DNA of 64,000 bases, taken from NCBI GenBank assembly GCA_032718475.1, contig JAUCBJ010001674.1, positions 1-64,000 of the forward strand, given 5' to 3'. This stretch comes from Nemertoderma westbladi (taxonomy: Eukaryota; Animalia; Xenacoelomorpha). The notes below the pieces were generated by a model. The model was not told where the DNA came from. It did no database searches and saw nothing but the letters and a program-made list of their open reading frames with translations. Of the stretch, positions 13,342 through 63,364 are shown piece by piece; position 1 is the first letter of the stretch, and each line of letters starts with the position of its first letter. The translations under genes were made by a program, and so were the position numbers.

Positions 13342-13371
13342 TTAAATAAAGATGGAGACAGCAAGGTGATC

Positions 13372-35300: not shown

Positions 35301-38300
35301 GTTGATAGGCTAAATGTTAATGTTGATGTTATGTTGATAGGCTAAATGTTAATGTTGATAGGCTATATGTTAATATTGATAGGCTAAATGTAAATGTTGA
35401 TAGGCTAAATGTAAATGTTGATAGGCTAAATGTAAATGTTGATAGGCTAAATGTAAATGTTGATAGGCTAAATGTTAATGTTGATAGGCTAAATGTTAAT
35501 GTTGATAGGCTAAATGTAAATGTTGATGTTATGTTGATAGGCTAAATGTTAATGTTGATAGGCTAAATGTTAATGTTGATAGGCTAAATGTAAATGTTGA
35601 TAGGCTAAATGTAAATGTTGATAGGCTAAATGTAAATGTTGATAGGCTAAATGTTAATGTTGATGTTATGTTGATAGGCTAAATGTTAATGTTGATAGGC
35701 TAAATGTAAATGTTGATAGGCTAAATGTTAATGTTGATAGGCTAAATGTTAATGTTGATAGGCTAAATGTTAATGTTGATAGGCTAAATGTTAATGTTGA
35801 TAGGCTAAATGTTAATGTTGATGTTATGTTGATAGGCTAAATGTTAATGTTGATAGGCTAAATGTTAATGTTGATAGGCTAAATGTTAATGTTGATAGGC
35901 TAAATGTTAATGTTGATAGGCTAAATGTTAATGTTGATAGGCTAAATGTTAATGTTGATATGTTGAATGTTAATGTTGATAGGCTAAATGTTAATGTTGA
36001 TAGGCTAAATGTAAATGTTGATAGGCTAAATGTTAATGTTGATAGGCTAAATGTAAATGTTGATAGGCTAAATGTTAATGTTGATAGGCTAAATGTTAAT
36101 GTTGATAGGCTAAATGTAAATGTTGATAGGCTAAATGTTAATGTTGATAGGCTAAATGTAAATGTTGATGTTATGTTGATAGGCTAAATGTAAATGTTGA
36201 TAGGCTAAATGTTAATGTTGATGTTATGTTGATAGGCTAAATGTTAATGTTGATAGGCTAAATGTTAATGTTGATAGGCTAAATGTTAATGTTGATAGGC
36301 TAAATGTTAATGTTGATAGGCTAAATGTTAATGTTGATAGGATAAATGTTAATGTTGATAGGCTAAATGTAAATGTTGATAGGCTAAATGTTAATGTTGA
36401 TAGGCTAAATGTTAATGTTGATAGGCTAAATGTTAATGTTGATAGGCTAAATGTTAATGTTGATAGGCTAAATGTTAATGTTGATAGGCTAAATGTTAAT
36501 GTTGATAGGCTAAATGTTAATGTTGATGTTATGTTGATAGGCTAAATGTTAATGTTGATAGGCTAAATGTAAATGTTGATAGGCTAAATGTTAATGTTGA
36601 TAGGCTAAATGTTAATGTTGATAGGCTAAATGTAATGTTGATAGGCTAAATGTTAATGTTGATAGGCTAAATGTAAATGTTGATAGGCTAAATGTTAATG
36701 TTGATAGGCTAAATGTAAATGTTGATGTTATGTTGATAGGCTAAATGTAAATGTTGATAGGCTAAATGTTAATGTTGATAGGCTAAATGTTAATGTTGAT
36801 GTTATGTTGATAGGCTAAATGTTAATGTTGATAGGCTATATGTTAATATTGATAGGCTAAATGTAAATGTTGATAGGCTAAATGTAAATGTTGATAGACT
36901 AAATGTTAATGTTGATGTTATGTTGATAGGCTAAATGTTAATGTTGATAGGCTAAATGTAAATGTTGATAGGCTAAATGTTAATGTTGATAGGCTAAATG
37001 TTAATGTTGATGTTATGTTGATAGGCTAAATGTTAATGTTGATAGGCTAAATGTAAATGTTGATAGGCTAAATGTTAATGTTGATAGGCTAAATGTTAAT
37101 GTTGATAGGCTAAATGTAAATGTTGATAGGCTAAATGTTAATGTTGATAGGCTAAATGTAAATGTTGATGTTATGTTGATAGGCTAAATGTAAATGTTGA
37201 TAGGCTAAATGTTAATGTTGATAGGCTAAATGTTAATGTTGATGTTATGTTGATAGGCTAAATGTTAATGTTGATAGGCTAAATGTAAATGTTGATAGGC
37301 TAAATGTTAATGTTGATAGGCTAAATGTTAATGTTGATAGGCTAAATGTTAATGTTGATAGGCTAAATGTTAATGTTGATAGGCTAAATGTAAATGTTGA
37401 TAGGCTAAATGTTAATGTTGATAGGCTAAATGTAAATGTTGATAGGCTAAATGTTAATGTTGATAGGCTAAATGTTAATGTTGATAGGCTAAATGTTAAT
37501 GTTGATAGGCTAAATGTAAATGTTGCTAGGCTAATGTTAATGTTGATAGGCTAAATGTTAATGTTGATAGGCTAAATGTAAATGTTGATAGGCTAAATGT
37601 AAATGATGATAGGCTAAATGTTAATATTGATAGGCTAAATGTTAATGTTGATAGGCTAAATGTTAATATTGATAGGCTAAATGTTAATATTGATAGACTA
37701 AATGTTAATGTTGATAGGCTAAATGTAAATGTTGATAGGCTAAATGTAAATGTTGATAGGCTAAATGTAAATGTAGATAGGCTAAATGTTAATATTGATA
37801 GGCTAAATGTTAATGTTGATAGGCTAAATGTTAATGTTGATAGGCTAAATGTTAATGTTGATAGGCTAAATGTAAATGTTGATGTTATGTTGATAGGCTA
37901 AATGTAAATGTTGATAGGCTAAATGTAAATGTTGATAGGCTAAATGTAAATGTTGATAGGCTAAATGTAAATGTTGATAGGCTAAATGTAAATGTTGATA
38001 GGCTAAATGTAAATGTTGATAGGCTAAATGTAAATGTTGATAGGCTAAATGTAAATGTTGATAGGCTAAATGTAAATGTTGATAGGCTAAATGTAAATGT
38101 TGATAGGCTAAATGTAAATGTTGATAGGCTAAATGTTAATGTTGATAGGCTAAATGTAAATGTTGATAGGCTAAATGTAAATGTTGATAGGCTAAATGTA
38201 AATGTAGATAGGCTAAATGTTAATATTGATAGGCTAAATGTTAATGTTGATAGGCTAAATGTTAATGTTGATAGGCTAAATGTTAATGTTGATAGGCTAA

Positions 38301-39970
38301 ATGTAAATGTTGATGTTATGTTGATAGGATAAATGTAAATGTTGATAGGCTAAATGTAAATGTTGATAGGCTAAATGTAAATGTTGATAGGCTAAATGTA
38401 AATGTTGATAGGCTAAATGTAAATGTTGATAGGCTAAATGTAAATGTTGATAGGCTAAATGTAAATGTTGATAGGCTAAATGTAAATGTTGATAGGCTAA
38501 ATGTAAATGTTGATAGGCTAAATGTAAATGTTGATAGGCAAATGTAAATGTTGATAGGCTAAATGTAAATGTTGATAGGCTAAATGTTAATGTTGATAGG
38601 CTAAATGTTAATGTTGATAGGCTAAATGTTAATGTTGATAGGCTAAATGTTAATGTTGATAGGCTAAATGTTAATGTTGATAGGCTAAATGTAAATGTTG
38701 ATGTTATGTTGATAGGCTAAATGTTAATGTTGATGTTATGTTGATAGGCTAAATGTAAATGTTGATAGGCTAAATGTAAATGTTGATAGGCTAAATGTTA
38801 ATGTTGATAGGCTAAATGTTAATGTTGATAGGCTAAATGTTAATGTTGATAGGCTAAATGTTAATGTTGATAGGCTAAATGTAAATGTTGATAGGCTAAA
38901 TGTAAATGTTGATAGGCTAAATGTAAATGTTGATAGGCTAAATGTAAATGTTGATAGGCTAAATGTAAATGTTGATAGGCTAAATGTTAATGTTGATAGG
39001 CTAAATGTAAATGTTGATGTTATGTTGATAGGCTAAATGTTAATGTTGATAGGCTAAATGTAAATGTTGATAGGCTAAATGTTAATGTTGATAGGCTAAA
39101 TGTTAATGTTGATAGGCTAAATGTAAATGTTGATAGGCTAAATGTAAATGTTGATAGGCTAAATGTTAATGTTGATAGGCTAAATGTAAATGTTGATAGG
39201 CTAAATGTTAATGTTGATAGGCTAAATGTAAATGTTGATAGGCTAAATGTTAATGTTGATAGGCTAAATGTAAATGTTGATGTTATGTTGATAGGCTAAA
39301 TGTAAATGTTGATAGGCTAAATGTAAATGTTGATAGGCTAAATGTAAATGTTGATAGGCTAAATGTAAATGTTGATAGGCTAAATGTTAATGTTGATAGG
39401 CTAAATGTTAATGTTGATAGGCTAAATGTTAATGTTGATAGGCTAAATGTTAATGTTGATAGGCTAAATGTTAATGTTGATAGGCTAAATGTTAATGTTG
39501 ATAGGCTAAATGTTAATGTTGATAGGCTAAATGTAAATGTTGATGTTATGTTGATAGGCTAAATGTTAATGTTGATGTTATGTTGATAGGCTAAATGTAA
39601 ATGTTGATAGGCTAAATGTAAATGTTGATAGGCTAAATGTTAATGTTGATAGGCTAAATGTTAATTTTGATAGGCTAAATGTTAATGTTGATAGGCTAAA
39701 TGTTAATGTTGATAGGCTAAATGTAAATGTTGATAGGCTAAATGTAAATGTTGATAGGCTAAATGTTAATGTTGATAGGCTAAATGTAAATGTTGATAGG
39801 CTAAATGCAAATGTTGATAGGCTAAATGTAAATGTTGATAGGCTAAATGTTAATGTTGATAGGCTAAATGTTAATGTTGATAGGCTAAATGTAAATGTTG
39901 ATAGGCTAAATATAAATGTTGATAGGCTAAATGTTAATGTTGATGTTATGTTGATAGACTAAATGTTAAT
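17366..39970. repeat. 22.6 kb satellite, 21-bp monomer AAATGT(T/A)AATGTTGATAGGCT with a frequent +11-bp variant (GTTATGTTGAT); roughly 1000 monomers
   Basis: Directly visible. Confidence 0.99.
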
Positions 39971-40574: not shown

Positions 40575-40607
40575 CTAATAGAAACAGCTAGCTGTTAGCG
40601 CTGATAC

Positions 40608-43600
40608 ATAACAGAGGCGCGTATAGATAACAGAGTCGCGTATAGATAACAGAGGCCGTATAGATAACAGAGGCGCGTATAGATAACAGAGGCGGGTATA
40701 GATAACAGAGTCGCGTATAGATAACAGAGGCCGTATAGATAACAGAGGCGCGTATAGATAACAGAGGCGGGTATAGATAACAGAGGCGCGTATAGATAAC
40801 AGAGGGGCGTATAGATAACAGAGGCGGGTATAGATAACAGAGGCGGGTATAGATAACAGAGGGGCGTATAGATAACAGAGGCGGGTATAGATAACAGAGG
40901 CGGGTATAGATAACAGAGGCGGGTATAGATAACAGAGGCGGGTATAGATAACAGAGTCGGGTATAGATAACAGAGGCCGTATAGATAACAGAGGCGGGTA
41001 TAGATAACAGAGGCGCGTATAGATAACAGAGGCGGGTATAGATAACAGAGGCGGGTATAGATAACAGAGGCCGTATAGATAACAGAGGCGGGTATAGATA
41101 ACAGAGGCGGGTATAGATAACAGAGGCGGGTATAGATAACAGAGGCGCGTATAGATAACAGAGGCGGGTATAGATAACAGAGGCGGGTATAGATAACAGA
41201 GGCGGGTATAGATAACAGAGCGGTATAGATAACAGAGGCGTATAGATAACAGAGGCGGCGTATAGATAACAGAGGCGGGTATAGATAACAGAGGCGGGTA
41301 TAGATAACAGAGGGGCGTATAGATAACAGAGGCGGGTATAGATAACAGAGGCGGGTATAGATAACAGAGGCGGCGTATAGATAACAGAGGCGGGTATAGA
41401 TAACAGAGGCGGGTATAGATAACAGAGGCGGGTATAGATAACAGAGGCGGGTATAGATAACAGAGGCGGGTATAGATAACAGAGGCGCGTATAGATAACA
41501 GAGGCGGGTATAGATAACAGAGGCGCGTATAGATAACAGAGGCGCGTATAGATAACAGAGGCGGGTATAGATAACAGAGGCGGGTATAGATAACAGAGGC
41601 GCGTATAGATAACAGAGGCGGGTATAGATAACAGAGGCGGGTATAGATAACAGAGGCGGGTATAGATAACAGAGGCGGGTATAGATAACAGAGGCGGGTA
41701 TAGATAACAGAGGCGGGTATAGATAACAGAGGCGGGTATAGATAACAGAGGCGGGTATAGATAACAGAGGCGGCGTATAGATAACAGAGGCGGGTATAGA
41801 TAACAGAGGCGGGTATAGATAACAGAGGCGGCGTATAGATAACAGAGGCGGGTATAGATAACAGAGGCGGGTATAGATAACAGAGGCGGGTATAGATAAC
41901 AGAGGCGGGTATAGATAACAGAGGCGCGTATAGATAACAGAGGCGCGTATAGATAACAGAGGCGCGTATAGATAACAGAGGCGGGTATAGATAACAGAGG
42001 CGGGTATAGATAACAGAGGCGGGTATAGATAACAGAGGCGGGTATAGATAACAGAGGCGGGTATAGATAACAGAGGCGGGTATAGATAACAGAGGCCGTA
42101 TAGATAACAGAGGCGGGTATAGATAACAGAGGCGCGTATAGATAACAGAGGCGGGTATAGATAACAGAGGCGGGTATAGATAACAGAGGCGGCGTATAGA
42201 TAACAGAGGCGGGTATAGATAACAGAGGCGGGTATAGATAACAGAGGCGGGTATAGATAACAGAGGCGGGTATAGATAACAGAGGCGCGTATAGATAACA
42301 GAGGCGGGTATAGATAACAGAGGCGGGTATAGATAACAGAGGCGGGTATAGATAACAGAGGCGGGTATAGATAACAGAGGCGGGTATAGATAACAGAGGC
42401 GGGTATAGATAACAGAGGCGGGTATAGATAACAGAGGCGGGTATAGATAACAGAGGCGGCGTATAGATAACAGAGGCGGGTATAGATAACAGAGGCGCGT
42501 ATAGATAACAGAGGCGGGTATAGATAACAGAGGCGGGTATAGATAACAGAGGCGCGTATAGATAACAGAGGCGGGTATAGATAACAGAGGCGGGTATAGA
42601 TAACAGAGGCGGGTATAGATAACAGAGGCGGGTATAGATAACAGAGGCGCGTATAGATAACAGAGGGGCGTATAGATAACAGAGGCGGGTATAGATAACA
42701 GAGGCGGGTATAGATAACAGAGGCGGGTATAGATAACAGAGGCGGGTATAGATAACAGAGGCGGGTATAGATAACAGAGGGGCGTATAGATAACAGAGGC
42801 GGGTATAGATAACAGAGGCGCGTATAGATAACAGAGGGGCGTATAGATAACAGAGGCGGGTATAGATAACATAGGCGGGTATAGATAACAGAGGCGGGTA
42901 TAGATAACAGAGGCGGGTATAGATAACAGAGGCGGGTATAGATAACAGAGGCGGGTATAGATAACAGAGGCGGGTATAGATAACAGAGGGGCGTATAGAT
43001 AACAGAGGCGGGTATAGATAACAGAGGCGCGTATAGATAACAGAGGGGCGTATAGATAACAGAGGCGGGTATAGATAACAGAGGCGGGTATAGATAACAG
43101 AGGCGGGTATAGATAACAGAGGCGGGTATAGATAACAGAGGGGCGTATAGATAACAGAGGCGCGTATAGATAACAGAGGCGGGTATAGATAACAGAGGCG
43201 GGTATAGATAACAGAGGCGGGTATAGATAACAGAGGCACGTATAGATAACAGAGGCGGGTATAGATAACAGAGGCGGGTATAGATAACAGAGGCGCGTAT
43301 AGATAACAGAGGCGGGTATAGATAACAGAGGCGCGTATAGATAACAGAGGCGCGTATAGATAACAGATGGGCGTATAGATAACAGAGGCGCGTATAGATA
43401 ACAGAGGCGCGTATGGATAACAGAGGGGCGTATAGATAACAGAGGGGCGTATAGATAACAGAGGCGGGTATAGATAACAGAGGCGGGTATAGATAACAGA
43501 GGCGGGTATAGATAACAGAGGCGGGTATAGATAACAGAGGGGCGTATAGATAACAGAGGCGGGTATAGATAACAGAGGCGGGTATAGATAACAGAGGCGG

Positions 43601-45216
43601 GTATAGATAACAGAGGCGGGTATAGATAACAGAGGGGCGTATAGATAACAGAGGCGGGTATAGATAACAGAGGCGGGTATAGATAACAGAGGCGGGTATA
43701 GATAACAGAGGCGGGTATAGATAACAGAGGCGGGTATAGATAACAGAGGCGGGTATAGATAACAGAGGGGCGTATAGATAACAGAGGCGGGTATAGATAA
43801 CAGAGGCGGGTATAGATAACAGAGGCGGGTATAGATAACAGATGGGCGTATAGATAACAGAGGCGCGTATAGATAACAGAGGCGCGTATAGATAACAGAG
43901 GCGGGTATAGATAACAGAGGCGCGTATAGATAACAGAGGCGCGTATAGATAACAGATGGGCGTATAGATAACAGAGGCGGGTATAGATAACAGAGGCGCG
44001 TATAGATAACAGAGGGGCGTATAGATAACAGAGGCGGGTATAGATAACAGAGGCGGGTATAGATAACAGAGGCGGGTATAGATAACAGAGGCGGGTATAG
44101 ATAACAGAGGCGCGTATAGATAACAGAGGGGCGTATAGATAACAGAGGCGGGTATAGATAACAGAGGCGGGTATAGATAACAGAGGCGGGTATAGATAAC
44201 AGAGGCGGGTATAGATAACAGAGGCGGGTATAGATAACTGAGGCGGGTATAGATAACAGAGGCGGGTATAGATAACAGAGGCGCGTATAGATAACAGAGG
44301 CGCGTATAGATAACAGAGGCGCGTATAGATAACAGAGGCGCGTATAGATAACAGAGGCGGGTATAGATAACAGAGGCGCGTATAACAGAGGCGCGTATAA
44401 CAGAGGCGCGTATAGATAACAGAGGCGGGTATAGATAACAGAGGCGGGTATAGATAACAGAGGCGGGTATAGATAACAGAGGCGGGTATAGATAACAGAG
44501 GCGGGTATAGATAACAGAGGCGGGTATAGATAACAGAGGCGCGTATAGATAACAGAGGCGCGTATAGATAACAGAGGCGCGTATAGATAACAGAGGCGCG
44601 TATAGATAACAGAGGCGGGTATAGATAACAGAGGCGCGTATAACAGAGGCGCGTATAACAGAGGCGCGTATAGATAACAGAGGCGGGTATAGATAACAGA
44701 GGCGGGTATAGATAACAGAGGGGCGTATAGATAACAGAGGCGGGTATAGATAACAGAGGCGGGTGTAGATAACAGAGGCGGGTATAACAGAGGCGCGTAT
44801 AGATAACAGAGGCGCGTATAGATAACAGAGGGGCGTATAGATAACAGAGGCGGGTATAGATAACAGATGGGCGTATAGATAACAGAGGCGCGTATAGATA
44901 ACAGAGGGGCGTATAGATAACAGAGGCGGGTATAGATAACAGAGGCGGGTGTAGATAACAGAGGCGCGTATAACAGAGGCGCGTATAGATAACAGAGGCG
45001 CGTATAGATAACAGAGGCGCGTATAGATAACAGAGGCGCGTATAGATAACAGAGGCGCGTATAGATAACAGAGGCGGGTATAGATAACAGAGGCGCGTAT
45101 AACAGAGGCGCGTATAACAGAGGCGCGTATAGATAACAGAGGCGGGTATAGATAACAGAGGCGGGTGTAGATAACAGAGGCGGGTATAACAGAGGGGCGT
45201 ATAGATAACAGAAGCC
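40608..45216. repeat. 4.6 kb minisatellite, 19-bp monomer GTATAGATAACAGAGGCG(G/C), about 240 copies, filling the last DLST intron (40575-45361)
   Basis: Directly visible. Confidence 0.99.
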
Positions 45217-45361
45217 ACCGTTATAGAACCAGAGATAAAAGATATATCTGAAAATACTATCCTGTATATCTGCAATTTACATTCCCTTCACTCGCCACCA
45301 ATCTATCGTAGATTTATACCATGACCAACAACTGTATATATTAGGTTATGTTTATACTTAC

Positions 45362-45529
45362 ATTCCCTTCTCTCGCTACCGGTCTATCCTGCACTGCATG
45401 CATCCCCAGGATGGCGCTCTGAGGTAGGTTTATTATCGGAGTACCGAACATTGACCCAAACACTCCGCCATTACTGATTGTGAAAGTGCCTCCCTCCATA
45501 TCGTCCACCTCCAATGTGTTGGTTCGCGC
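45362..45529 (-). CDS. DLST: DLST penultimate coding exon (168 bp, phase 0/0)
   Basis: TTTTTAG|[56 protein letters not shown]|GTAAGT. Confidence 0.97.
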
Positions 45530-45600
45530 CTAAAAACAATCGGCATATAAAATTCGTATTGACAATGATACAGGAATAGGAAACCAAACAAAAGCGATTA

Positions 45601-46672: not shown

Positions 46673-46830
46673 CTTGGCAACCAGGTCAGCGATAGCCTTC
46701 TCTATATTCACGTAGTTCATATTCTCAACATTTCTTACGACCGGAACCACAAGTCCTTTAGGGGCAGCAACAGCCACAGATATATCGATGTAATCCCGGT
46801 ACACAATCTCATTGGAATCGTGGTCAATCA
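46673..46830 (-). CDS. DLST: DLST internal coding exon (158 bp, phase 1/0)
   Basis: TTTTTTTCTATAG|(V)[52 protein letters not shown]|GTTAGT; splices in frame to the next exon. Confidence 0.96.
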
Positions 46831-46851
46831 CTATAGAAAAAAAACGAATAT

Positions 46852-49800
46852 TATTGGTTAATATCCCCTTTGATACTAACCTGCATTTACTATTGGTTAA
46901 TCTTCCCTTTGATACTAATCTGCGTTTACTATTGGTTAATCTTTCCTGTGATACTAACCTGCGTTTACTATTGGTTAATCTTCCCTTTGATACTAATCTG
47001 CGTTTACTATTGGTTAATCTTTCCTGTGATACTAACCTGCGTTTACTATTGGTTAATCTTCCCTTTGATACTAATCTGCGTTTACTATTGGTTAATCTTT
47101 CCTGTGATACTAACCTGCGTTTACTATTGGTTAATCTTCCCTTTGATACTAACCTGCGTTTACTATTGGTTAATATTTCCTTTGATACTAACCTGCGTTT
47201 ACTATTGGTTAATCTTTCCTTTGATACTAACCTGCGTTTACTATTGGTTAATCTCCCCTTTGATACTAACCTGCGTTTACTATTGGTTAATCTTCCCTTT
47301 GATACTAATCTGCGTTTACTATTGGTTAATCTTTCCTGTGATACTAACCTGCGTTTACTATTAGTTAATCTTCCCTTTGATACTAATCTGCGTTTACTAT
47401 TGGTTAATCTTTCCTGTGATACTAACCTGCGTTTACTATTGGTTAATCTTCCCTTTGATACTAATCTGCGTTTACTATTGGTTAATCTTCCCTTTGATAC
47501 TAACCTGCGTTTACTATTGGTTAATCTTCCCTTTGATACTAATCTGCGTTTACTATTGGTTAATCTTTCCTGTGATACTAACCTGCGTTTACTATTGGTT
47601 AATCTTCCCTTTGATACTAATCTGCGTTTACTATTGGTTAATCTTCCCTTTGATACTAACCTGCGTTTACTATTGGTAAATCTTTCCTTTGATACTAACC
47701 TGCGTTTACTATTGGATAATCTTCCCTTTGATACTAATCGGCGTTTACTATTGGTTAATCGTTCCTTTGATACTAACCTGCATTTACTATTGGCTAATCT
47801 TCCCTTTGATACTAACCTGCGTTTACTATTAGTTAATCTTCCCATTGATACTAACCTGCGTTTACTATTGGTTAATCGTTCCTTTGATACTAATCTGCGT
47901 TTACTATTGGTTAATCTTCCCTTTGACACTAACCTGCGTTTGCTATTGGTTAATCGTTCCTTTGATACTAACCTGCGTTTACTATTGGATAATCTTCCCT
48001 TTGATACTAATCGGCGTTTACTATTGGTTAATCGTTCCTTTGATACTAACCTGCATTTACTATTGGCTAATCTTCCCTAAGATACTAACCTGCGTTTACT
48101 ATTAGTTAATCTTCCCATTGATACTAACCTGCGTTTACTATTGGTTAATCGTTCCTTTGATACTAACCTGCGTTTACTATTAGTTAATCTTTCCTTTGAT
48201 ACTAACCTGCGTTTAATATTGGTTAATCGTTCATTTGATACTAACCTGCGTTTACTATTGGTTAATCTTTCCTTTGATACTAACCTGCGTTTACTATTGG
48301 TTAATCTTCCCTTTGATACTAACCTGCGTTTACTATTGGTTAATCTTCCCTTTGATACTAACCTGCGTTTACTATTGGTTAATCTTCCCTTTGATACTAA
48401 CCTGCGTTTACTATTGGTTAATCTTCCCTTTGATACTAACCTACGTTTACTATTGGCTATTCTTCCCTTTGATACTAACCTGCGTTTACTATTGGTTAAT
48501 CTTCCCTTTGATACTAACCTGCGTTTACTATTGGTTAATCTTCCCTTTGATACTAACCTGCGTTTACTATTGGTTAATCTTCCCTTTGATACTAACCTGC
48601 GTTTACTATTGGCTATTCTTCCCTTTGATACTAACCTGCGTTTACTATTGGCTATTCTTCCCTTTGATACTAACCTGCGTTTACTATTGGTTAATCTTCC
48701 CTTTGATACTAACCTGCGTTTACTATTGGCTATTCTTCCCTTTGATACTAACCTGCGTTTACTATTGGTTAATCGTCCCTTTGATACTAACCTGCGTTTA
48801 CTATTGGTTAATCTTTCCTGTGATACTAACCTGCGTTTACTATTGGTTAATCTTCCCTTTGATACTAACCTGCGTTTACTATTGGCTAATCTTCCCTTTG
48901 ATACTAACCTGCGTTTACTATTGGTTAATCTTCCCTTTGATACTAACCTGCGTTTACTATTGGTTAATCGTTCCTTTGATACTAACCTGCGTTTACTATT
49001 GGTTAATCTTCCCTTTGATACTAACCTGCGTTTACTATTGGCTAATCTTCCCTTTGATACTAACCTGAGTTTACTATTGGTTAATCTTCCCCTTGATACT
49101 AACCTGCGTTTACTATTGGTTAATCTTTCCTTTGATACTAACCTGCGTTTACTATTGGTTAATCTTCCCTTTGATACTAACCTGCGTTTACTATTGGCTA
49201 ATCTTCCCTTTGATACTAACCTGCGTTTATTATTGGTTAATCTTCCCTTTGATACTAACCTGCGTTTACTATTGGTTAATCTTCCCTTTGATACTAACCT
49301 GCGTTTACTATTGGTTAATCGTTCCTTTGATACTAACCTGCGTTTACTATTGGTTAATCTCCCCTTTGATACTAACCTGTGTTTACTATTGGTTAATCTT
49401 CCTTTTGATACTAACCTGCGTTTACTATTGGTTAATCTTCCCTTTGATACTAACCTGCGTTTACTATTGGTTAATCTTCCCTTTGATACTAACCTGCGTT
49501 TACTATTGGTTAATCGTTCCTTTGATACTAACCTGCATTTACTATTGGCTAATCTTCCCTTTGATACTAACCTGCGTTTACTATTAGTTAATCTTCCCTT
49601 TGATTCTAACCTGCGTTTACTATTGGTTAATCTTCCCTTTGATACTAACCTGCGTTTACTATTGGTTAATCTTCCCTTTGATACTAACCTGCGTTTACTA
49701 TTGGTTAATCTTTCCTTTGATACTAACCTGCGTTTACTATTGGTTAATCTTCCCTTTGATACTAATCTGCGTTTACTATTGGTTAATCGTTCCTTTGATA

Positions 49801-50567
49801 CTAACCGGCGTTTACTATTGGTTAATCTTCCCTTTGATACTAACCTGCGTTTACTATTGGTTAATCTTCCCTTTGATACTAACCTGCGTTTACTATTGGT
49901 TAATCTTCCCTTTGATACTAACCTGCGTTTACTATTGGTTAATCGTTCATTTGATACTAACCTGCGTTTACTATTGGTTAATCTTTCCTTTGATACAAAC
50001 CTGCGTTTACTAATGGTTAATCTTCCCTTTGATACTAACCTGCGTTTACTATTGGTTAATCTTCCCTTTGATACTAATCTGCGTTTACTATTGGTTAATC
50101 TTTCCTTTGATACTAACCTGCGTTTACTATTAGTTAATCTTTCCTTTGATACTAACCTGCGTTTACTAATGGTTAATCTTCCCTTTGATACTAACCTGCG
50201 TTTACTATTAGTTAATCTTTCCTTTGATACTAACCTGCGTTTACTATTGGTTAATCTTCCCTTTGATACTAACCTGCGTTTACTATTGGTTAATCTTCCC
50301 TTTGATTCTAACCTGCGTTTACTATTGGTTAATCTTCCCTTTGATACTAACCTGCGTTTACTATTGGTTAATCTTCCCTTTGATACTAACCTGCGTTTAC
50401 TATTGGTTAATCTTCCCTTTGATACTAACCTGCGTTTACTATTGGCTATTCTTCCCTTTGATACTAACCTGCGTTTACTATTGGTTAATATTCCCTTTGA
50501 TACTAACCTGCGTTTACTATTGGTTAATCTTCCCTTTGATACTAACCTGCGTTTACTATTAGTTAAT
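46852..50567. repeat. 3.7 kb minisatellite, 39-bp monomer, about 95 copies; on the minus strand ACCAATAGTAAACGCAG|GTTAGTATCAAAGGGAAGATTA
   Basis: Directly visible; the monomer corresponds to a DLST exon end plus splice donor. Confidence 0.98.
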
Positions 50568-52851
50568 AATAATAATAATAATAATACACAATTTCTTATT
50601 ATGCGCCTTTTTCGCAAGGTTCAAAGGCGCAGTAGTAAAAACAGTTAGAAAGTCAGTTGAAGGCCCTATTATATAAACATGTTTTGAGTTGAGATTTGAA
50701 TGATTCTAAATTTGTGCAAGTTCTTAAGCTAAGGGGGAGACTGTTGAAAATAACTGGGGCAGCATGTTTAAATGCACGGGAACCGACCGTCTTTAAGTTG
50801 TATCTTGGGACCGATAAAGTCCACAGTTGTTGGGTTCTAGTTGGGTTGTAGTTTGGAGTCAACAGTTCTAAAATGTAAGACGGGGCGAGACCATTAAGCG
50901 CCTTCCACGTCATGAGTGCAATCTTGTACTCGATACGGAAGGTGACCGGCAACCAGTGAAGAGTTCGTAATGTAGGAGTGATGTGAGACCGAACAGGTTG
51001 ACCGGAAATAAGGCGGGCGCAGCTATTAAGTGCGAGTTGTAGTCTGTTGAGGGACACAGTTGGTAGATTATACAGAAGACTGTTGTTTTGATCGATACGT
51101 GATATTATTAGAGCATTGACAAGCTTCTTCAGATTATCAGAAGACAAGTGTTCTTTTATTCGACGTATGTTCCTGAGGTGAAAGTTAATAGATGCTGTGA
51201 GAGTTTTAATGTGATCATGCATATTTAGCTGACTATCGAAGCGAACTCCAAGGGTTGTTACGGTGGATAGGGATTGAATTATCTTGCCGCCTAGAGAGAC
51301 TGAGAATTCTGATGCAAAGCTCAAGAAATCATTGCCGCGTCCAAGTAGTAGGATGTCTGTCTTGTCATCATTCAAGAACAGGTGAAGTTCATCGAGTTGC
51401 ACTTTGATGGCTTGGATGCAATTTGCTATCGAAGCTTTTAGTGCCAATGAGTCAAGGCAGTCGAAAATTATGAAGATCTGGTTGTCGTCAGCGTAGATGT
51501 GGTAGCCGACTTCAAGATGATCGCATGCTGTAGCAATGGGCAGACAGTATAGATAAGGTACAGGATTGCTCCAAGGACTGAGCCCTGGGGAACTCCACTC
51601 AAAAGGTTTACAACACGAGAAAGTTTCCCATTTATTGAAACTACGAATGATCTATCTGATAGGTATGACTTAAACCACTGATAGACAGTCCCGTCAATGC
51701 CGATATTACGAAGTGTGTCTAGTAATATGTTGTAATCGACAAGGTCGAAAGCAGCCGATTGATCTAAGAGAATGAGAGCTGCGAATTTACCACTATCAAT
51801 AGTTTCGAGTAAGTCACTTTGTAATCTGCACAATAGTGTTTCAACAGAGTGATATTTACGATAACCGGAGACAAACTTTGGAATAATATTATTCTTATCT
51901 AGGTAGTCAATCAGTTGGAGAGCAGCGTGTTTTTCAATGATCTTAGAAAGGAAAGATAAGTTTGAAACTGGTCTGTAGTTTTTCTTGTTTTGATGGTCGA
52001 GTTTAGCTTTCTTTAGTAGTGGACGGAGAATCGCTTGTTTACCATTGGATGGGAATTCACCGCGTTCAAGAGAAGTTGATGTTATTTTATGAACAATCGG
52101 AATCCATTGCTCTGGGACCTTTTTTAGGATTTCAGTTGGGATAGGATCGGAGGAACACGTTGTAGGTTTCATGTTACTAATAATCTGTTTGGTCTCCTGT
52201 GCCGTCGGGATAGTGAATTTTTCCCACTTCGAGTTAAAATCACTAGACGGATGATCTGGTACGGTGGGTGTTGCAGGTGCTGAGTCACGGAATTTATTTA
52301 CCTTTTCCTCAAAGAAATCGGCAAATTCATTGGCTAACATAGAATCATCCTCTGAATCTGGGAGACGCGGGGAGTTGGTTGAGAGAGATTTGACAAAGCT
52401 GAACAGTTCACTAGTGGAGTTCGTTGACAATTTCGAAGAGTAGAATTCTGAAGATATCTCTCCACATCTGGTATAATATTCTTTGCAACTATTTCTGTAT
52501 ACAGTTCGGTTCTCGCTGGTGCGATGTTTCCTGAAACGCCGCTCAAGTTTGCGCTTTTTATTCCGGAGTAGTTTCAACTCAGCAGTAAACCAAGGGGTAG
52601 AGGGTCTAGGTTTGAAAACGGTAGATTTTTCAGGAGAAATAATAGAGGCGATATTAGTTAGATGATCATTGTATTCACTACAAAGTTCAGTGACAGTTAA
52701 ACTGGGATCAAATGTAACATCCAGCATATCACGTAGAAGATCTAAGTTACATTTCTTCCAGGATCGATGCAACACTTTCGTTGACGGCTTTGTAGTATGG
52801 GACACCGGGCGCCGTAGGATATTCAAAGTGAAAGAGACAGGGTAATGGTCT
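50565..52851 (-). mobile_element. L2-clade LINE: end of the endonuclease, RT with one frameshift near 51540, 3' stem-loop and (TTA)n tail
   Basis: Motifs DHYPV, PWFT, KNYRPVSNLSFLSKIIEK, SGYRKYHSVET, LLDQSAAFDLVD, GVPQGSVLG, YADD (shifted frame, near 51490) and HITPTLRTLHWLPV. Hairpin TGCGCCTTT..AAAGGCGCA at 50602-50631; tail at 50565-50586. Confidence 0.93.
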
Positions 52852-54043
52852 TGTTCGCGCTTTCAGACCTTTGGCAGTTTAACCCGCCAAATTAGAATGT
52901 CTTCTAGATAATAAATCGCTTTTTAGCCTATGACAAGTATTTGATTCACTACACTAGTCGAAACCAATCTGTGCGCGATCATTCACCCGCTGGATATTCC
53001 CGGGAGATTGGGTTCGACGGTTTAATTTTATTGCTATGTAAGCCTAATGTATTATTCGACTGACAGTATTATATAATCTCTGACAATATTATTCACCTTC
53101 GGTAATATTAACAGTTCCTTTAGGACGTGGCGCTTTATCTATATAAACAGAGTTATGACTTAAACTACTCACAACGATATGGCTTAATTATAATTCACAT
53201 ATATGGCGCATTCTTTAGGAATGCTTCTTTAACAGACTCACTCATACACAATGCTGCACAATACTGCACACTAATCTGCCGATCTTCACTGATTTTAGTC
53301 ACATATAAAAGGAACACAGACTGACTCATGTAGGGTCTATCAAATAACATTAGATTCACTTCAAACCACTTTAACATAAGTCACAATCGTTTATCTGTAA
53401 CCTTTCTCTCTTACCTTCGGTATATCAAGAATATTGGGTGTCGGGGTTATTTCTCGTTATTCCAATATAATAATTCATCAACAAATATAATGAATAACCG
53501 ACAACAAATAGCAGTATGCAGTATTCACAAAGCCAGTTATTAAAGGCCGTGACTACGGTGTGTCAAATGCGAGTTAAATGCGAGGTGCAGTTAAAGGATA
53601 TATGTCCTTATAATTAAACCTACTAGTGTTGCGCTAAAAAGCAGAAAACATAAAACACTAAAAAGCCGTTCTTTCGTGGCTTTGAAAAACTCGTGACTAC
53701 TGCTCTATACGAGGATACCAACTCCCTTATTCCACGAAGCTCCCGTTCAACACAGAGAAAGAGCAGTGAGATAGGAAATTTTCAGTTCAGCAGCTCTGTG
53801 ATAGGTCAAAATCAAGGCTAACTCAAATTCTATTGGGAGATACAAAAACAAGGCTATGACGCAACCTCCCTAGGCTTGTTGGCCGATTAAACAGAGCCCA
53901 GATGCCTGCGTACAGCAAATCAGCCAATAAGCTGGTAACTTGCACTATTTTTAACTATAGATCACTTTGAGAGTATTCTTAGCGACTGGGGGGGAACTGG
54001 CCAACAAGGCAAACGAATCAGTTATCCCACAAAAGCTTTTACA
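52852..54043 (-). repeat. Probable 3' LTR (1192 bp) of the BEL/Pao element
   Basis: Minus strand reads TGTAAAAGCTTT...AAAGCGCGAACA, is preceded by purine-rich TGGGAGCGG (PPT-like), and begins exactly where LINE coding similarity stops. The second LTR is not in the window. Confidence 0.6.
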
Positions 54044-54121
54044 CCGCTCCCAGAAAATGGGATTTAAGTCTATAAAATATAACAAATCACAGTTTCTAAA
54101 ATATAAAAATACTCTAAACAG

Positions 54122-58540: not shown

Positions 58541-61500
58541 TCACTGCATCCTGAATACAATTCCAGGTTTCCTCTTCGTCCTGGAATAGTGACGATAGAA
58601 ACATTGCTCAAAGTATATGACGGCGTCACAAAGCCGATTCCAGGAGCTATAGTGGTCCGTCGCTCTCTGCAGGAGAGGTGAGAGTCCCTGCGAGACGTCT
58701 GATGTTCCAGAGCTCCAATCGCTCTCTCTGATCTTCATGAAGGATCCACTCGCGGTGGGGAGGTCCAGATCCACGGCGTCGTCCCTGGCAATATGTACTA
58801 CCGACAGATCTATCCCGGGTTCAAATAACTCCGCTCCACCCGTCCGGGTTTTAGGTTTAACTTTCTCCGCTCCCTTGGCTGGTCTAATCTCAGTCGGAGT
58901 AAGATGGGGAGGCCATTCATCCTCCTTACTCAGGAAGTCGGGTTCACCTAACCGGTCTGTAGTATCTGTCAGTTCTTGAGGAGTTGCTCCTCTGGAAGCG
59001 ATGTCAGTTGTATTCATCGTCTTGGGGCAATATCTCCATTGATCTACATTGGAGTTAAGATTGTCATTATCTGAGGAGTGTGGTGTTCCCTCAGTTGGGT
59101 CGTCTCCCTCACTATTATCATCTTCCCATTCACTTACCTGGCAGACGCGATCTTGAAGCAGTCTTTCCCTGAGCGTTCTACGGGAAGGTCCAGTAAGGTA
59201 CCAACCTACTCTAGTTCTTACCGCATAGGTCTGTAGTGGCTGCGGTTGAGCAGGCCGTTTCTCTAATGTCTCCAGCGCCTCATGCGCGTTTTGGCCGATG
59301 AGTATTTGCACTCCAGGATAATCAGTCTGGAATCGAGGTATGTTAAGATGTTGGATGCTCTCATCCTCGTCCCAATTATAAAGGTCTGCTTGTGTAGTAG
59401 CGAAGTTCTTTATAGCCACCATTTTCACTGACCTGATGCTATGTTCTCCTAGTTCGTCCTGGGGGGTGGACAACTCACCTATATAATAGTCGGCAGCTAC
59501 AGTAGAATTCCAAACCTGCATGATCCCTGACATGTTTAGCTTGGTTCGGAACTTGGGTTGTCCAGCAAAGATGACTTCGGCTAGTTCTTTATCGATGAAT
59601 GTTCCTGTGCTACCGGAGTCCAGGAGGGCGTTCACTATATAGCTCTTCTGAGGTCCGTGGACCCGTAACTGGACTACAGGAAATTCTCGGATTCCTATAT
59701 TGGAAGTTGGCGCTTTCCAAGATGGTTGTTGATCGGAAGTAGTTAAGGTAAGGTCGCTGTCTGTGTCTTTCTCATACACAAATGCTCGATACACTGCGGT
59801 GGTGTTTATTAGGTAACAGGATTCGTTTTGGTCGGAGAACTCGTCCGTATAGAATCCTTCCATCTCAGATTGATCAGTGTCGTTCACATCACTGAATTGG
59901 ACATGTAGTTCGGACTCACTTACCTGACTCGGGCTGTTTCGTTCGAATTCCGTGTGCAACAAGATATGATGTTTTGCGCCGCACTTTGCACACCTTGCGT
60001 CGGAGTTACAGGTTCGCCGTTGGTGTCCTCGTCTGAGGCAATTATAACACAACCGCTTATCCCACATGACTTCACGTCTATCCTTTAGTGATTTCCTCAG
60101 GAATTTATCACACGCATTTAAACGGTGGGGCCCGTCGCACAGCACACATTTGGGCTTGATGTTACTTACTTTAACATGTGCTGTGTGGTGCACACTTGTT
60201 CTTTCCTCGGGCTTTCTCACCTGAATTCTTTTAGGAGACGTAGGAGGGGTTTTTTGTACCGGTTCCCTTCTGTCATTGGGTCGAGACTTGGATTTACTTA
60301 CCTGATCTTTAGGCATTTTATTGACATAAGATCTGTCAGTGTCTTTCCCGCTGTCCTCTCCTTGAGAAGTTTGGCTTTCACCGTCGTCGGTATAACATAC
60401 TGGTGTTACCCTTCTCCTAGAAACGGGTTTCTCACTTACCTTACTTTCCGCTGTCTTCTCTCTGGACTGCTTTATGAGCTGTAATTTCACCTCGCTATCC
60501 AGGAATGACATGAGATCAGCCATGGTAGGGTCTCGTTGTTGTTGTTCCATCATATATAACACCTTCTTGTCCCAGCGTGTACCTACTCCACCCTTGGGCA
60601 AAGTAGATGCTAAGGCTCCTACAACCATAGAATTCTGGTATTCATGAGACTTACCTAACCAATCTAGTTGTCTACAGATCTCCTGAATCTCATCGGAAAA
60701 CTCTATAATCCCGCTGCTAAGAAACTTTCGGGGCGCCATTAATTTCGCATATAAATACCTAGCTATGTTAGTCCTATTACCATACCTGATGTTTAGTGTA
60801 TCCCAAACTTGTCTTAATCCGTCTGGATGTCCAATAAACTTTAACGCCATTAACTTGGGAGATCCTTCCAAGCACTCGATGAGGTATCTAAGTTTTTCTC
60901 CATTAGATAGTACAGAGTTCTGTATGTTATCTTTGTAATATTCATTAAAAGGTAACCATTTCATCTCATCTCCATTGAACTTGACGATCTCTCCAACCTT
61001 TACCGCTTGCCGGGCTTCGGTTCTAGCCATTTGACGCGTAAAACTTTCTTGGGCCATCGTGCTATTTAATATCGAGTTATCGGTATATAAATTTCTAGGA
61101 TTATGATCCGGTCTATAGGGAATATCACTATCAACAGGTCTATAATTACCCTTAATAGGGTTCACTATAGGAGTTTCTACTTCGCTAGCAGTATAGATGC
61201 GTGTAGGCTCCACACCTTGCGCATGAGATACTTCAGACCTAACGGGTTGACACATTGTTACAGAGGGTGGTGGTATACCTCTTTGAGTATTTACTAATTT
61301 ATCGCGCTCTAGCGCGATACTTTGCTGCACTTCTTGCAACTCTAGTCTACTTTCCCTTACTGTGCCCTTGAATTGCTGGACAGTCTCCTGCATCTGCCCG
61401 AGCAGGATATCCATCCCCCGCCGTCTCTCGTCCACCCATTCGACCGCCGAAGCGGGAGTCGCCAACGTTGTAGCGGGCGGATGAGGGACAACGGGCGACA

Positions 61501-63364
61501 AATTATGAATATTTCGCTCGGGGTCCAGGACCTGAACTGTCTCTGGGGCAGTTCTACGGGGCACAGGTAGCTTAGTGCTATGCAGAGGGAATTTAGAAGT
61601 AGTTTCAGGGAGCACAAGTGTATCTATCACCGAAGGGGTGATTTCAAGAACAGGCCTAATTATTTCAGGCTCATCTACTATAGTAGGGAGTCTTTCTATT
61701 TTAATTATTTGGTCTGTGGGCTCTGTACTACCTAAGTTGGTGTTATTTAGTTGCCTTCTAACAGCTGGAGGCAAATCAGGCAATTTCTGACGGTGGAATG
61801 TTCTTTTACGTCTGCTTAGACGAGATCTATTTCCTTTGCCTTCAGTATCGGTGGTATCGCCTTCCTCAGATGATGTATATCCCTGTCTTTTGGGAGTAGA
61901 TCGATTCATCATCTGCATATTGCTAGCCGTTAACTGTTTATTTATGCAGTCTTGATTCTCTTGAATGTTTTCCAATTCTAATTGGTTGGTTTCTTCGGCC
62001 GCTTTTGCCTCTGCCGCTGCCGCTTTTGCCTCTGCCGCTGCCTCTGCCGCTGCCGCCTTTCTTTCAGCTTCGGCCGCCTTTGCCTCTGCCGCTGCCGCTT
62101 TTGCCTCGGCCGCTGCCTCTGCCGCTGCCGCTTTTCTTTCAGCTTCGGCTACTTTCCTTTCCGCTTCGGCAGCTGCTACTGCTGCTTTCTTTCTGTCTTC
62201 TATACGTTTTTTCTTGACTTGTTCTTCTTGGACTCGTGTGATGCGGAGTTGTTCATCAAATTTAGCCTGGTTCGCAGCCCTCATTTCCACATCGATGGCA
62301 TCCAACACAAGCTTGGTTCCTTCACTATTAGGGCTAAGTCCCTCTAACCTTCTCCTCAACTCGTCATCACCTAAAAAACGTTGATAGTCTGACAGATAGA
62401 TGTCAATGGCATCCCTCTTATGCGGTTTCTCTGCCGTCGCTTCACTTTCCACTTGGGAAAAAGTAGCGTCTGTTGATTCTCCATGGGTTGAGCGCTCCTC
62501 TAGCTGAGCTTTCCACTGAGCTGTTCCTTGAACCTGGAGACTCACCCTTTGAAACCAAGTCTTTACGGCAACTTGCAACGACGTGTCTTGCCTTCGTTTT
62601 GAAGCCTCCTCAAAGGCCGATAATATTAGCCTGATCCGCAAAACTCTTTCTCTAACTTGATAAAGCAGCGATCCCTGCTCTTGAGGTCCTTGAGGTTGTT
62701 GAAAAAGTTGCTTTTCTACTCGCTCCATAGAGCTGAAGAATCCCTGTGCGTATCCGGCTGCGGACCTCTTCCACACAGCTGGATCGATGGTTTCCTTGGC
62801 TACTCCCATCCGGTGTATGTCTTCCCAGGCAGCTTCTGATAAATCAAACGGGAGTCCGGGTCCGGGGAAGTTCCATTGCGACTCGACAATAGACTTCAGT
62901 TCTTCACTCGTGTATCCCGCGTAACTATCTCTAGTTGACCGTCGACTTCTCGCCCAATCGATCTGGTGTTCTTCCACCGCGATCAATAACCCAGCGAGCA
63001 CGGCTGCAGGAAGGATGAGAAGGGGATCCGTATAAACCGCATCCGTCATCTCTGCTCCGCGCTCGGGTGTCAGCTCTACAGTATCCTCACTACTGGAGCT
63101 GCTGGGCCGCTGAGGAATAGGTTCTTGACTAGCGGGTTGTTGCTGTTCCGCTGCTTGTTGGTCCCGCTTGACCTGAGCTCGGGTGCCTATGATAGACCTA
63201 CGATGTTGGACTAGCCTAGGTTCTGTTATTACTACTGGAGGGATGACCTTCCTCACAGTGGGAGGTGAACTGAACTTACGACCAGACGGTTGTACGTCTC
63301 GATCTGAGTTGCAGATGGTTACATCTAATAAACTGTCTGACAGGTTCTGCTTAGTATCAGACAT
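58541..63364 (-). CDS. BEL/Pao Gag-protease polyprotein (1607 aa) with a long N-terminal extension and an RNase H C-terminal remnant
   Basis: KFNGDEMKWLPF..LSNGEKLRYLIECLEGSP..WDTLNIRYGN (DUF1759-like); three zinc knuckles CVLCDGPHRLNAC, CYNCLRRGHQRRTC and CAKCGAKHHILLH; protease ALLDSGS; then QWRYCPKTMNTTDIASRG and YSSWNRL. No RT YVDD or integrase core. Confidence 0.9.
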   Translation of the reverse strand: MSDTKQNLSDSLLDVTICNSDRDVQPSGRKFSSPPTVRKVIPPVVITEPRLVQHRRSIIGTRAQVKRDQQAAEQQQPASQEPIPQRPSSSSSEDTVELTPERGAEMTDAVYTDPLLILPAAVLAGLLIAVEEHQIDWARSRRSTRDSYAGYTSEELKSIVESQWNFPGPGLPFDLSEAAWEDIHRMGVAKETIDPAVWKRSAAGYAQGFFSSMERVEKQLFQQPQGPQEQGSLLYQVRERVLRIRLILSAFEEASKRRQDTSLQVAVKTWFQRVSLQVQGTAQWKAQLEERSTHGESTDATFSQVESEATAEKPHKRDAIDIYLSDYQRFLGDDELRRRLEGLSPNSEGTKLVLDAIDVEMRAANQAKFDEQLRITRVQEEQVKKKRIEDRKKAAVAAAEAERKVAEAERKAAAAEAAAEAKAAAAEAKAAEAERKAAAAEAAAEAKAAAAEAKAAEETNQLELENIQENQDCINKQLTASNMQMMNRSTPKRQGYTSSEEGDTTDTEGKGNRSRLSRRKRTFHRQKLPDLPPAVRRQLNNTNLGSTEPTDQIIKIERLPTIVDEPEIIRPVLEITPSVIDTLVLPETTSKFPLHSTKLPVPRRTAPETVQVLDPERNIHNLSPVVPHPPATTLATPASAVEWVDERRRGMDILLGQMQETVQQFKGTVRESRLELQEVQQSIALERDKLVNTQRGIPPPSVTMCQPVRSEVSHAQGVEPTRIYTASEVETPIVNPIKGNYRPVDSDIPYRPDHNPRNLYTDNSILNSTMAQESFTRQMARTEARQAVKVGEIVKFNGDEMKWLPFNEYYKDNIQNSVLSNGEKLRYLIECLEGSPKLMALKFIGHPDGLRQVWDTLNIRYGNRTNIARYLYAKLMAPRKFLSSGIIEFSDEIQEICRQLDWLGKSHEYQNSMVVGALASTLPKGGVGTRWDKKVLYMMEQQQRDPTMADLMSFLDSEVKLQLIKQSREKTAESKVSEKPVSRRRVTPVCYTDDGESQTSQGEDSGKDTDRSYVNKMPKDQVSKSKSRPNDRREPVQKTPPTSPKRIQVRKPEERTSVHHTAHVKVSNIKPKCVLCDGPHRLNACDKFLRKSLKDRREVMWDKRLCYNCLRRGHQRRTCNSDARCAKCGAKHHILLHTEFERNSPSQVSESELHVQFSDVNDTDQSEMEGFYTDEFSDQNESCYLINTTAVYRAFVYEKDTDSDLTLTTSDQQPSWKAPTSNIGIREFPVVQLRVHGPQKSYIVNALLDSGSTGTFIDKELAEVIFAGQPKFRTKLNMSGIMQVWNSTVAADYYIGELSTPQDELGEHSIRSVKMVAIKNFATTQADLYNWDEDESIQHLNIPRFQTDYPGVQILIGQNAHEALETLEKRPAQPQPLQTYAVRTRVGWYLTGPSRRTLRERLLQDRVCQVSEWEDDNSEGDDPTEGTPHSSDNDNLNSNVDQWRYCPKTMNTTDIASRGATPQELTDTTDRLGEPDFLSKEDEWPPHLTPTEIRPAKGAEKVKPKTRTGGAELFEPGIDLSVVHIARDDAVDLDLPTASGSFMKIRESDWSSGTSDVSQGLSPLLQRATDHYSSWNRLCDAVIYFEQCFYRHYSRTKRKPGIVFRMQ

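What the first reader, a model, noticed from the sequence alone, without database searches (positions are those of the whole stretch)
46831..50567. A satellite made of a splice junction: about 95 tandem copies of the DLST exon end plus 5' splice site, each followed by an in-frame stop
Seen: on the DLST strand the 39-bp monomer reads A CCA ATA GTA AAC GCA G|GTTAGT ATCAAAGGGAAGATTA. Known: DLST reads ...P-V-V-N-A-V-I-D at this point, and the exon at 46830 begins TG ATT GAC (phase 1). So CCA ATA GTA AAC GCA G is exactly the expected upstream exon end (PIVNA plus the G of Val), followed by a good donor. Seen: the last copy leaves a compact 50-nt intron (46831-46880) with a TTAAC branch-like motif, a T-tract and TAG, and ACCAATA occurs in both the exon end and that intron. 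Inference: slippage at this 7-nt microhomology amplified the junction and helped turn a 50-nt intron into one over 17 kb. Reading through any donor gives GCA GGT TAG, so only the most upstream donor yields protein and the other ~95 are decoys leading to truncation or NMD. Each unit is also a CAG|GT with a branch-like motif, so it could act as a recursive-splicing ratchet point or a U1 snRNP-loading array.
Basis: partly seen in the sequence, partly recalled or inferred. Interest (0 to 1): 0.88.

Follow-up and report, generated by a model that had tools for sequence, protein, structure and literature searches.

The report
Splice-donor minisatellite in animal DLST intron
The end of one exon of a core metabolic gene, with what is likely its splice signal, has been copied 95 times inside the following intron, yet the assembled transcripts are spliced correctly, so this is likely a harmless, large example of an oddity already known from human and lancelet genes.

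Summary
Window 46852-50567 holds 95 indel-free 39-bp copies. 82 keep a GT donor, and all 95 carry a stop in the DLST frame. Spliced contigs from two runs give the true upstream exon end (…ALKDQPIVNA|V). It matches the monomer at 23 of 24 bases, and no copy carries the exon's C at -19. So the repeat comes from the DLST exon end, the true exon lies outside the window, and the mRNA seen skips all copies. The block is cut off from its exon by at least 13.4 kb of transposons. Read depth suggests about twice as many copies exist. A decayed single duplication of the same kind sits two exons downstream, and two other large arrays lie in or beside the gene, which points to a neutral, repeat-prone locus. 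Decoy/NMD and ratchet roles are unsupported: the copies lack a pyrimidine tract and no RNA evidence backs them. This is a new member of a known kind (human F7, CBS, IFI6 and ABCA7 donor VNTRs; lancelet 'mirages'). The scan has also found such arrays on other DNA (45 findings, at least 19 genomes).

The parts
46852..50567 (-). 39-bp minisatellite, 95 copies. Unit = last ~24-25 nt of the upstream DLST exon + ~14-15 nt that likely were the start of its intron. 82 copies have a GT donor.
46831..46880 (-). Last donor copy to real acceptor: 50 nt holding a partial (possibly decayed) monomer with a TTAAC branch-like motif, a T-tract and TAG
   Evidence: acceptor use shown by spliced contigs
46673..46830 (-). 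DLST exon 'A' (158 nt, phase-1 start, GTTAGT donor)
   Evidence: mRNA contigs with 0 differences
45362..45529 (-). DLST exon 'B' (168 nt, GTAAGT donor)
45277..45307 (-). Single decayed duplicate of the exon B end plus donor (26 of 31 identical to 45358-45388, period 81; donor weakened from 9 to 6 of 11 U1 matches)
   Evidence: 0 of 3000 shuffles reach the score
40440..40574 (-). Last DLST coding exon, to the stop codon
   Evidence: loose end of mRNA contigs matches it
50568..52862 (-). LINE-type retrotransposon fragment: RT frames 51471-52862 and 50656-51651 with a frameshift. Its (TAT)n 3' tail runs directly into the first monomer.
   Evidence: (RVT_1 E 1.6e-15); tail/monomer junction also in run X1
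58544..63388 (-). 1615-codon frame with DUF1759, likely a BEL/Pao-type LTR retrotransposon (family label recalled), inside the same intron
40604..45212 (.). 19-bp minisatellite (~245 copies) filling the last DLST intron
17366..39944 (.). 21-bp satellite (~1056 copies, 22.6 kb) starting about 500 bp past the DLST stop codon

Best explanation
The array is a tandem amplification of the DLST exon end plus what is likely the start of its intron; it likely has no function, and the assembled mRNA joins the authentic exon straight to the real acceptor and skips all 95 copies. Likely history (inferred): a 39-nt duplication across the exon-intron boundary arose by slippage or unequal exchange on an 8-nt exact (about 13-nt imperfect) homology between the exon end and intron sequence 39 nt further on. 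The unit was then amplified and homogenised by unequal exchange. A LINE inserted at an ATTA inside the array, and more transposons piled in, pushing this block at least 13.4 kb from the exon. A second block probably still sits behind the exon. Likely reason for silence (inferred): the authentic donor is transcribed first and is defined with its exon. The copies are strong U1 sites but have no usable acceptor of their own, so they define no exon.
For: Shown. (1) The mRNA exon end matches the monomer at 23 of 24 bases, and 0 of 95 copies have the exon's C at -19, so the authentic exon is the one used. (2) Run X4 (spliced) is the same sample as X1. X1's single genomic contig runs without difference from intron A-B through exon A into the array, so that mRNA comes from an array-bearing locus; X2, from another study, shows the same. 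(3) No sign of constraint on the donors: 13 of 95 lost GT; there are 3 distinct substitutions in 6 donor positions against 10 in 16 exon-derived positions. (4) The same kind of duplication occurred once more at exon B and is decaying. (5) Three arrays fill 30,904 of 64,000 bases. (6) Monomer acceptors have 3 of 10 pyrimidines against 10, 7 and 7 of 10 at the real acceptors. (7) Two consensus contigs in X2 are 2.2-2.4 times deeper than the window's array predicts, which fits a second block. From papers: only the most upstream donor is used in F7, LMNB2 and PDGF (PMC1557585), and lancelet mirages do not disturb splicing (PMC3087553).
Against: The DNA behind the true exon was never seen. Among 70 (X1) and 14 (X2) monomer-bearing contigs, only the acceptor flank and the LINE-tail flank appeared. 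The two further flanks that a split array predicts did not appear. 76 of 95 copies match U1 at 10 of 11 positions, better than the gene's two visible donors (7 and 9 of 11). 11 of the 13 dead donors lie in the 30 copies nearest the acceptor. This is the most clumped of 7 common variants (0 of 2000 random placements) and could reflect selection, although it rides on a local 78-bp dimer. In IFI6, CBS and ABCA7 some pseudo-donors are used. Contigs drop rare isoforms, so low-level use is not excluded.
Confidence: 0.76

Rival explanations
1. Same neutral outcome, different birth: the array was never contiguous with the exon. A transposon insertion or small rearrangement first placed one copy of exon end plus donor on the far side of the insertion, and only that copy amplified next to the acceptor.
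For: The array starts exactly at the LINE tail, inside the exon-derived part of the unit. No monomer remnant lies at the LINE's 5' end or anywhere up to 64000. Only two flanks were seen.
Against: Depth in X2 implies about twice the window's copy number. Copy 1 carries the -15 C>T variant shared with 7 other copies, so it looks like an ordinary array member. Flank detection is incomplete: X2 also lacked the LINE-tail flank.
Confidence: 0.11
2. The array is used for stepwise intron removal. Each unit is CAG|GT. Splicing into it regenerates the donor (5' recursive). Splicing from any copy to exon A leaves branch motif + CAG directly before exon A, regenerating the acceptor (3' recursive). Both routes would end in correct mRNA.
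For: The sequence shows the geometry: a yUnAy motif at -17, then CAG|GT. The intron is at least 17 kb. The last donor is 50 nt from the acceptor. 3' recursive events are described (10.1101/159350).
Against: No pyrimidine tract and a competing AG at -11. 13 donors are dead, mostly near the acceptor. AG|GT follows automatically from copying any junction whose exon ends in AG. The exon junction complex is reported to suppress regenerated sites (PMC8184009).
Confidence: 0.06
3. One reading: the copies (or an unseen block right behind the exon) divert part of the transcripts into stop-containing forms removed by NMD, or load U1 against premature 3' end formation, so that array length tunes DLST output.
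For: All 95 copies carry a stop and 76 are near-perfect U1 sites. ABCA7 uses its second unit's donor, giving an out-of-frame transcript (PMC5954066). The unseen upstream block could behave in the same way.
Against: The stop at +3..+5 is part of the donor motif itself. The visible copies cannot extend the exon. The mRNA contigs seen use the authentic junction. No AATAAA or ATTAAA lies in the 240 nt upstream of the array.
Confidence: 0.05
4. Artefact or dead copy: the array is misassembled, or this DLST piece is a 5'-truncated duplicate and the mRNA comes from another locus.
For: The upstream exons are absent from the window. X1 and X2 may be the source of the window.
Against: Two studies give one contig each over exon A, with 0 differences, running into the array, and no second context for exon A. 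The mRNA contigs match exons A and B with 0 differences.
Confidence: 0.02

Closest known systems
Human F7 IVS7 37-bp VNTR, and the IFI6 (6-16), CBS IVS13, LMNB2 and PDGF cases it cites (Borensztajn et al. 2006, PMC1557585; I read the abstract, Introduction and Discussion)
   Same: The unit spans an exon end and its donor, and has nearly the same length (37 vs 39 bp). Identical pseudo-donors follow, and mRNA uses the most upstream site.
   Different: 5-9 copies (10-25 in the other genes) against 95 or more here. F7's unit holds 4 exon bases, this one about 24. Here the visible block is separated from its exon by at least 13.4 kb of transposons and abuts the acceptor.
Lancelet 'mirage' minisatellites (Adh3, globins BflGb6 and BflGb9; Ebner et al. 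2010 [authors recalled], PMC3087553; I read the 8 passages returned for two terms)
   Same: Invertebrate tandem duplications of exon-intron boundaries that carry long exon parts. They recur within a gene or genome, show concerted evolution with divergent edge copies, and do not disturb splicing in RT-PCR.
   Different: Few copies in the globin cases (3-6 for BflGb6). No transposon-split block is described in the passages read.
Human ABCA7 intron 18 VNTR (PMC5954066; I read 10 passages)
   Same: Each unit starts with the donor GT. Alleles range from about 12 to about 427 units, so 95-200 copies is within the known range.
   Different: The ABCA7 unit has no exon part, it touches its exon, and its second donor is detectably used and length affects splicing. 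None of that is shown here.
Recursive-splicing ratchet points (PMC8605326, 12 of 16 passages; 10.1101/159350, abstract and section 4)
   Same: Juxtaposed AG|GT inside a long intron.
   Different: Ratchet points are single, highly conserved and constitutively used sites. Here there are 95 mutating copies with purine-rich acceptor context and no evidence of use.

Membership tests
Junction-spanning donor minisatellite (F7-type / mirage) | Tandem unit contains the 3' end of the exon | tested here: met
   mRNA exon end equals the monomer at 23 of 24 bases
Junction-spanning donor minisatellite (F7-type / mirage) | Unit reiterates a donor motif inside that exon's intron | tested here: met
   82 of 95 GT, 79 of 95 GTTAGT, all upstream of the acceptor the mRNA uses
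Junction-spanning donor minisatellite (F7-type / mirage) | First unit spans the authentic boundary, so the authentic donor equals the pseudo-donors | tested here: inconclusive
   True exon is outside the window. No contig with its genomic flank was laid. Depth suggests further copies elsewhere.
Junction-spanning donor minisatellite (F7-type / mirage) | Mature mRNA uses the authentic upstream donor | tested here: met
   One contig each in X3 and X4, from two studies, carries the exon-specific C at -19
Junction-spanning donor minisatellite (F7-type / mirage) | Copy number varies between alleles | not testable with these tools
   Short-read contigs break in the array
Recursive-splicing ratchet point | Juxtaposed AG|GT in a long intron | tested here: met
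   Unit reads CAG|GT; intron is at least 17,170 nt
Recursive-splicing ratchet point | Acceptor of normal strength (pyrimidine tract; requirement recalled) | tested here: not met
   3 of 10 pyrimidines against 7-10 of 10 at three real acceptors; extra AG at -11
Recursive-splicing ratchet point | Site conserved between species | not testable with these tools
   No related animal genome is available; the 79 related loci examined were all intronless at this position
Recursive-splicing ratchet point | Splicing intermediates or lariats at the site | not testable with these tools
   Only assembled contigs were served, no raw or nascent reads

The most novel reading that the evidence does not exclude
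Because the copied exon end is branch motif + CAG, every mis-splice from one of the 82 live donors to exon A rebuilds an acceptor exactly at the exon A boundary. The acceptor-side array is therefore a self-repairing 3'-recursive ladder, born from a neutral duplication, that lets a transposon-swollen intron of an essential gene be removed in steps.
Probability: 0.06. Interest if true: 0.72.

Novelty: new member of a known kind. Interest (0 to 1): 0.3.

Why it matters
This is a large, clean natural test of 5' splice-site choice. About 80 near-perfect U1 sites, the last only 50 nt from the acceptor, lose to a donor more than 17 kb away. That fits transcription order and exon definition, not proximity to the acceptor. 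One diagnostic base (C in the exon, T in all 95 copies at -19) lets ordinary RNA reads tell authentic use from decoy use. It is also one more example of junction duplication feeding intron growth. It does not show a new mechanism: the class is described, and the scan has met it many times.

Tried and rejected
No whole genome is held for this window, so the contig could not be extended past 64000. The run search listed 8 runs and none on record as RNA. X3 and X4 proved to hold spliced contigs only when laid. X3 and X4 had no contig on the monomer (0 laid; zero depth in the bins from 46836 to 46930). Contigs drop rare forms, so I do not count this blank as evidence. One search showed only 15 of 23 joints, 24 of 371 loose ends and 32 of 3487 pieces; one search showed 16 of 84 pieces. 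X1 and X2 both have a hole over exon B (45240-45581), so absence of the true-exon flank proves nothing. The homologue search with exon A returned 1 protein among 1074 candidates, an ostracod DLST, and no same-species protein. tblastn with it found no upstream DLST exon in the window. A 24-nt monomer pattern had 0 matches in metagenome contigs. 80 related metagenome loci were fetched; 79 could be examined and all were continuous at this position, so they say nothing on orthologous intron size. Junction-duplication tests were not significant at the exon A donor (155 of 3000 shuffles) or the acceptors of exons B and C (2071 and 993 of 3000). So the 19-bp array is not shown to be junction-derived. 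11 short frames between the LINE and the DUF1759 frame (or overlapping its end) had no Pfam match, nor did a 12th. A paper search for DLST + intron + minisatellite found 0 papers. A search for recursive splicing with tandem repeat, satellite or giant intron listed 5 papers, none evidently on junction-derived arrays; I saw listings only. Scan notes by place and by sequence were empty. No supplements were opened; those of PMC3087553 hold the mirage alignments and could bear on the comparison.

Full report
Observation. Tandem Repeats Finder reports a 39-bp array at 46852-50567: 95.3 copies, 93% matches, no indels. On the minus strand the copies phase perfectly, with donor positions from 50546 down to 46880. 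82 of 95 keep GT, 79 of 95 keep GTTAGT, and 13 of 95 have +1 G>A. In the DLST frame 94 of 95 have TAG at +3..+5, and every copy has at least one stop (91 have two). The last donor lies 50 nt from the AG at 46831. The exons at 46673-46830, 45362-45529 and 40440-40574 encode the DLST catalytic domain (PF00198; PDB succinyltransferase E2 chains rank first). The gene is likely an animal's: the best hits are animal proteins, and the intron positions agree with the human gene as I recall it (not tested).

The key test. No genome is held, but contigs of four public runs could be laid on 45240-46930. X3 and X4, from two studies, each gave one contig that joins exon A to exon B across the 1143-nt intron and matches both with no difference. 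Its loose ends continue into the last exon on one side and an unknown exon on the other. That exon ends in codons for ALKDQPIVNA plus the G of Val. Against 94 of the 95 copies (copy 1 left out because the LINE tail precedes it), the commonest pattern (37 copies) is identity at -18..-1 and -24..-20 with one difference at -19: CAA in the exon, TAA in the copies. Motif searches with two mismatches and tblastn find no such exon in the window, so the intron is at least 17,170 nt.

Is this the working locus? Runs X1 and X2 each gave a single contig (721 and 796 nt, no difference) running from the A-B intron through exon A into the array and stopping there. No second context for exon A appears. Both contigs carry the last copy's T at -5, where the mRNA has C, so no array-free allele is visible. 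X4 is the same sample as X1. I infer that the array-bearing intron is spliced out correctly in vivo. X1 and X2 may be the source of the window and are not independent of it.

Surroundings. Copy 1 runs directly into the (TAT)n tail of a frameshifted LINE RT fragment, and X1 holds that junction too. Further up lie unidentified repeats and a 1615-codon DUF1759 frame, likely a BEL/Pao element (family label recalled). No monomer occurs elsewhere in the window. Of 70 and 14 monomer-bearing contigs in X1 and X2, only the acceptor flank (both runs) and the LINE-tail flank (X1) ran on into other sequence. That argues against a dispersed repeat, but the flank of the true exon also went unseen. Two consensus contigs in X2 have 85 and 73 times the depth of the exon A contig, where the window predicts 36 and 34, a ratio of 2.2-2.4. 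The tool warns that depth is no copy number, so this only suggests about 200 copies. The simplest reading is a second block beyond the window next to the exon.

The locus is repeat-prone. Three arrays fill 30,904 of 64,000 bases. The end of exon B plus its donor has one decayed duplicate 81 nt downstream: 26 of 31 identical, 0 of 3000 shuffles reach the score, and U1 matches fall from 9 to 6 of 11. The same test at three other junctions was not significant. Junction duplication therefore happened at least twice in this gene.

Mechanism. Inferred: a 39-nt duplication across the boundary was helped by homology between the exon end and sequence 39 nt downstream. The terminal segment matches the exon end at 14 of 20 bases, 8 of them in an exact run. 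This is either the original branch-point region of a 50-nt intron or an old edge copy; I cannot tell which. Amplification followed, with local homogenisation and a 78-bp dimer near the acceptor, and then transposon insertion. The copies are strong donors: 76 of 95 match U1 at 10 of 11 positions, against 7 and 9 for the gene's visible donors. They are poor acceptors: 3 of 10 pyrimidines against 10, 7 and 7, with a competing AG at -11. They likely stay silent because the authentic donor is made first and defined with its exon, while the copies define no exon. The stop at +3..+5 is part of the donor motif in a phase-1 intron, not an added feature. One result sits uneasily: 11 of 13 dead donors lie in the 30 copies nearest the acceptor (0 of 2000 random placements, the most clumped of 7 common variants). 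Its partner in the dimer is clumped too (92 of 2000), copies are not independent, and the very last copy keeps GT, so I read it as local amplification.

Because the copied exon end is CAG, splicing from a copy to exon A would rebuild an AG at the exon A boundary, and splicing into a copy would rebuild the donor. Both are formally repairable by a second splice (recursive types as defined in 10.1101/159350, abstract and section 4). The missing pyrimidine tract and the reported suppression of regenerated sites by the exon junction complex (PMC8184009, abstract and section 9) make this unlikely. It remains the most novel reading not excluded.

Comparison with what is known. PMC1557585 (abstract, Introduction and Discussion read) describes the human F7 37-bp VNTR whose first unit spans the exon 7 boundary and where only the first donor is used. 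It lists IFI6 (25 pseudo-sites), CBS (15-20), LMNB2 and PDGF. ABCA7 alleles reach about 427 donor-bearing units, with detectable use of the second (PMC5954066, passages). Lancelet 'mirages' are tandem duplications of exon-intron boundaries that do not interfere with splicing and have divergent edge copies (PMC3087553, passages). This array works like these. Three membership features were met, one was inconclusive and one untestable. What differs is the detachment from the exon and the position against the acceptor. It fails the acceptor criterion for ratchet points. A search for DLST with intron and minisatellite found no paper in the held library. Earlier scan notes list 45 similar findings in at least 19 genomes (8 shown, unchecked).

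Verdict. Real, correctly read as junction-derived, ordinary in kind. New member of a known kind; interest 0.3. The novel case (a self-repairing 3'-recursive ladder) has probability 0.06.

Noticed in passing
window 45277-45307 vs 45358-45388 (minus): A second, single and decayed duplication of an exon end plus donor in the same gene (26 of 31 identical, period 81).
   Followed up: yes
window 46919-48011 (copies 66-94): 11 of the 13 donor-killing +1 G>A variants lie in the 30 copies nearest the acceptor, mostly in alternating copies of a 78-bp dimer.
   Followed up: partly
window 17366-39944: 22.6-kb array of a 21-bp unit (~1056 copies) starting about 500 bp after the DLST stop codon, with strong GC skew (~0.67).
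   Followed up: no
window 40604-45212: 19-bp array (~245 copies, with 12-bp short units) filling the last DLST intron; stop-free in several frames for over 1500 codons, as expected of such a repeat.
   Followed up: partly
window ~45580-46210: Very high-copy interspersed repeat in the exon A-B intron (summed contig depth up to about 100,000 against ~28-31 for unique DNA); related pieces occur near 4970-9450.
   Followed up: no
window 13243-14421 (+): Uninterrupted 393-codon frame with a hydrophobic, membrane-like stretch and a fibrinogen C-terminal domain (PF00147, E 4e-23).
   Followed up: no
window 58544-63388 (minus): 1615-codon retrotransposon-like frame (DUF1759) with an Ala/Glu/Lys-rich 75-bp repeat at 61993-62170; Pfam found no RT or integrase in it, and no matching pair of LTRs was found in 50560-64000.
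   Followed up: partly
window 55481-55698 and 56611-56805: Two direct blocks of 34-46-bp units built on CAGTTA hexamers, about 1.1 kb apart, probably the ends of an unclassified element.
   Followed up: no
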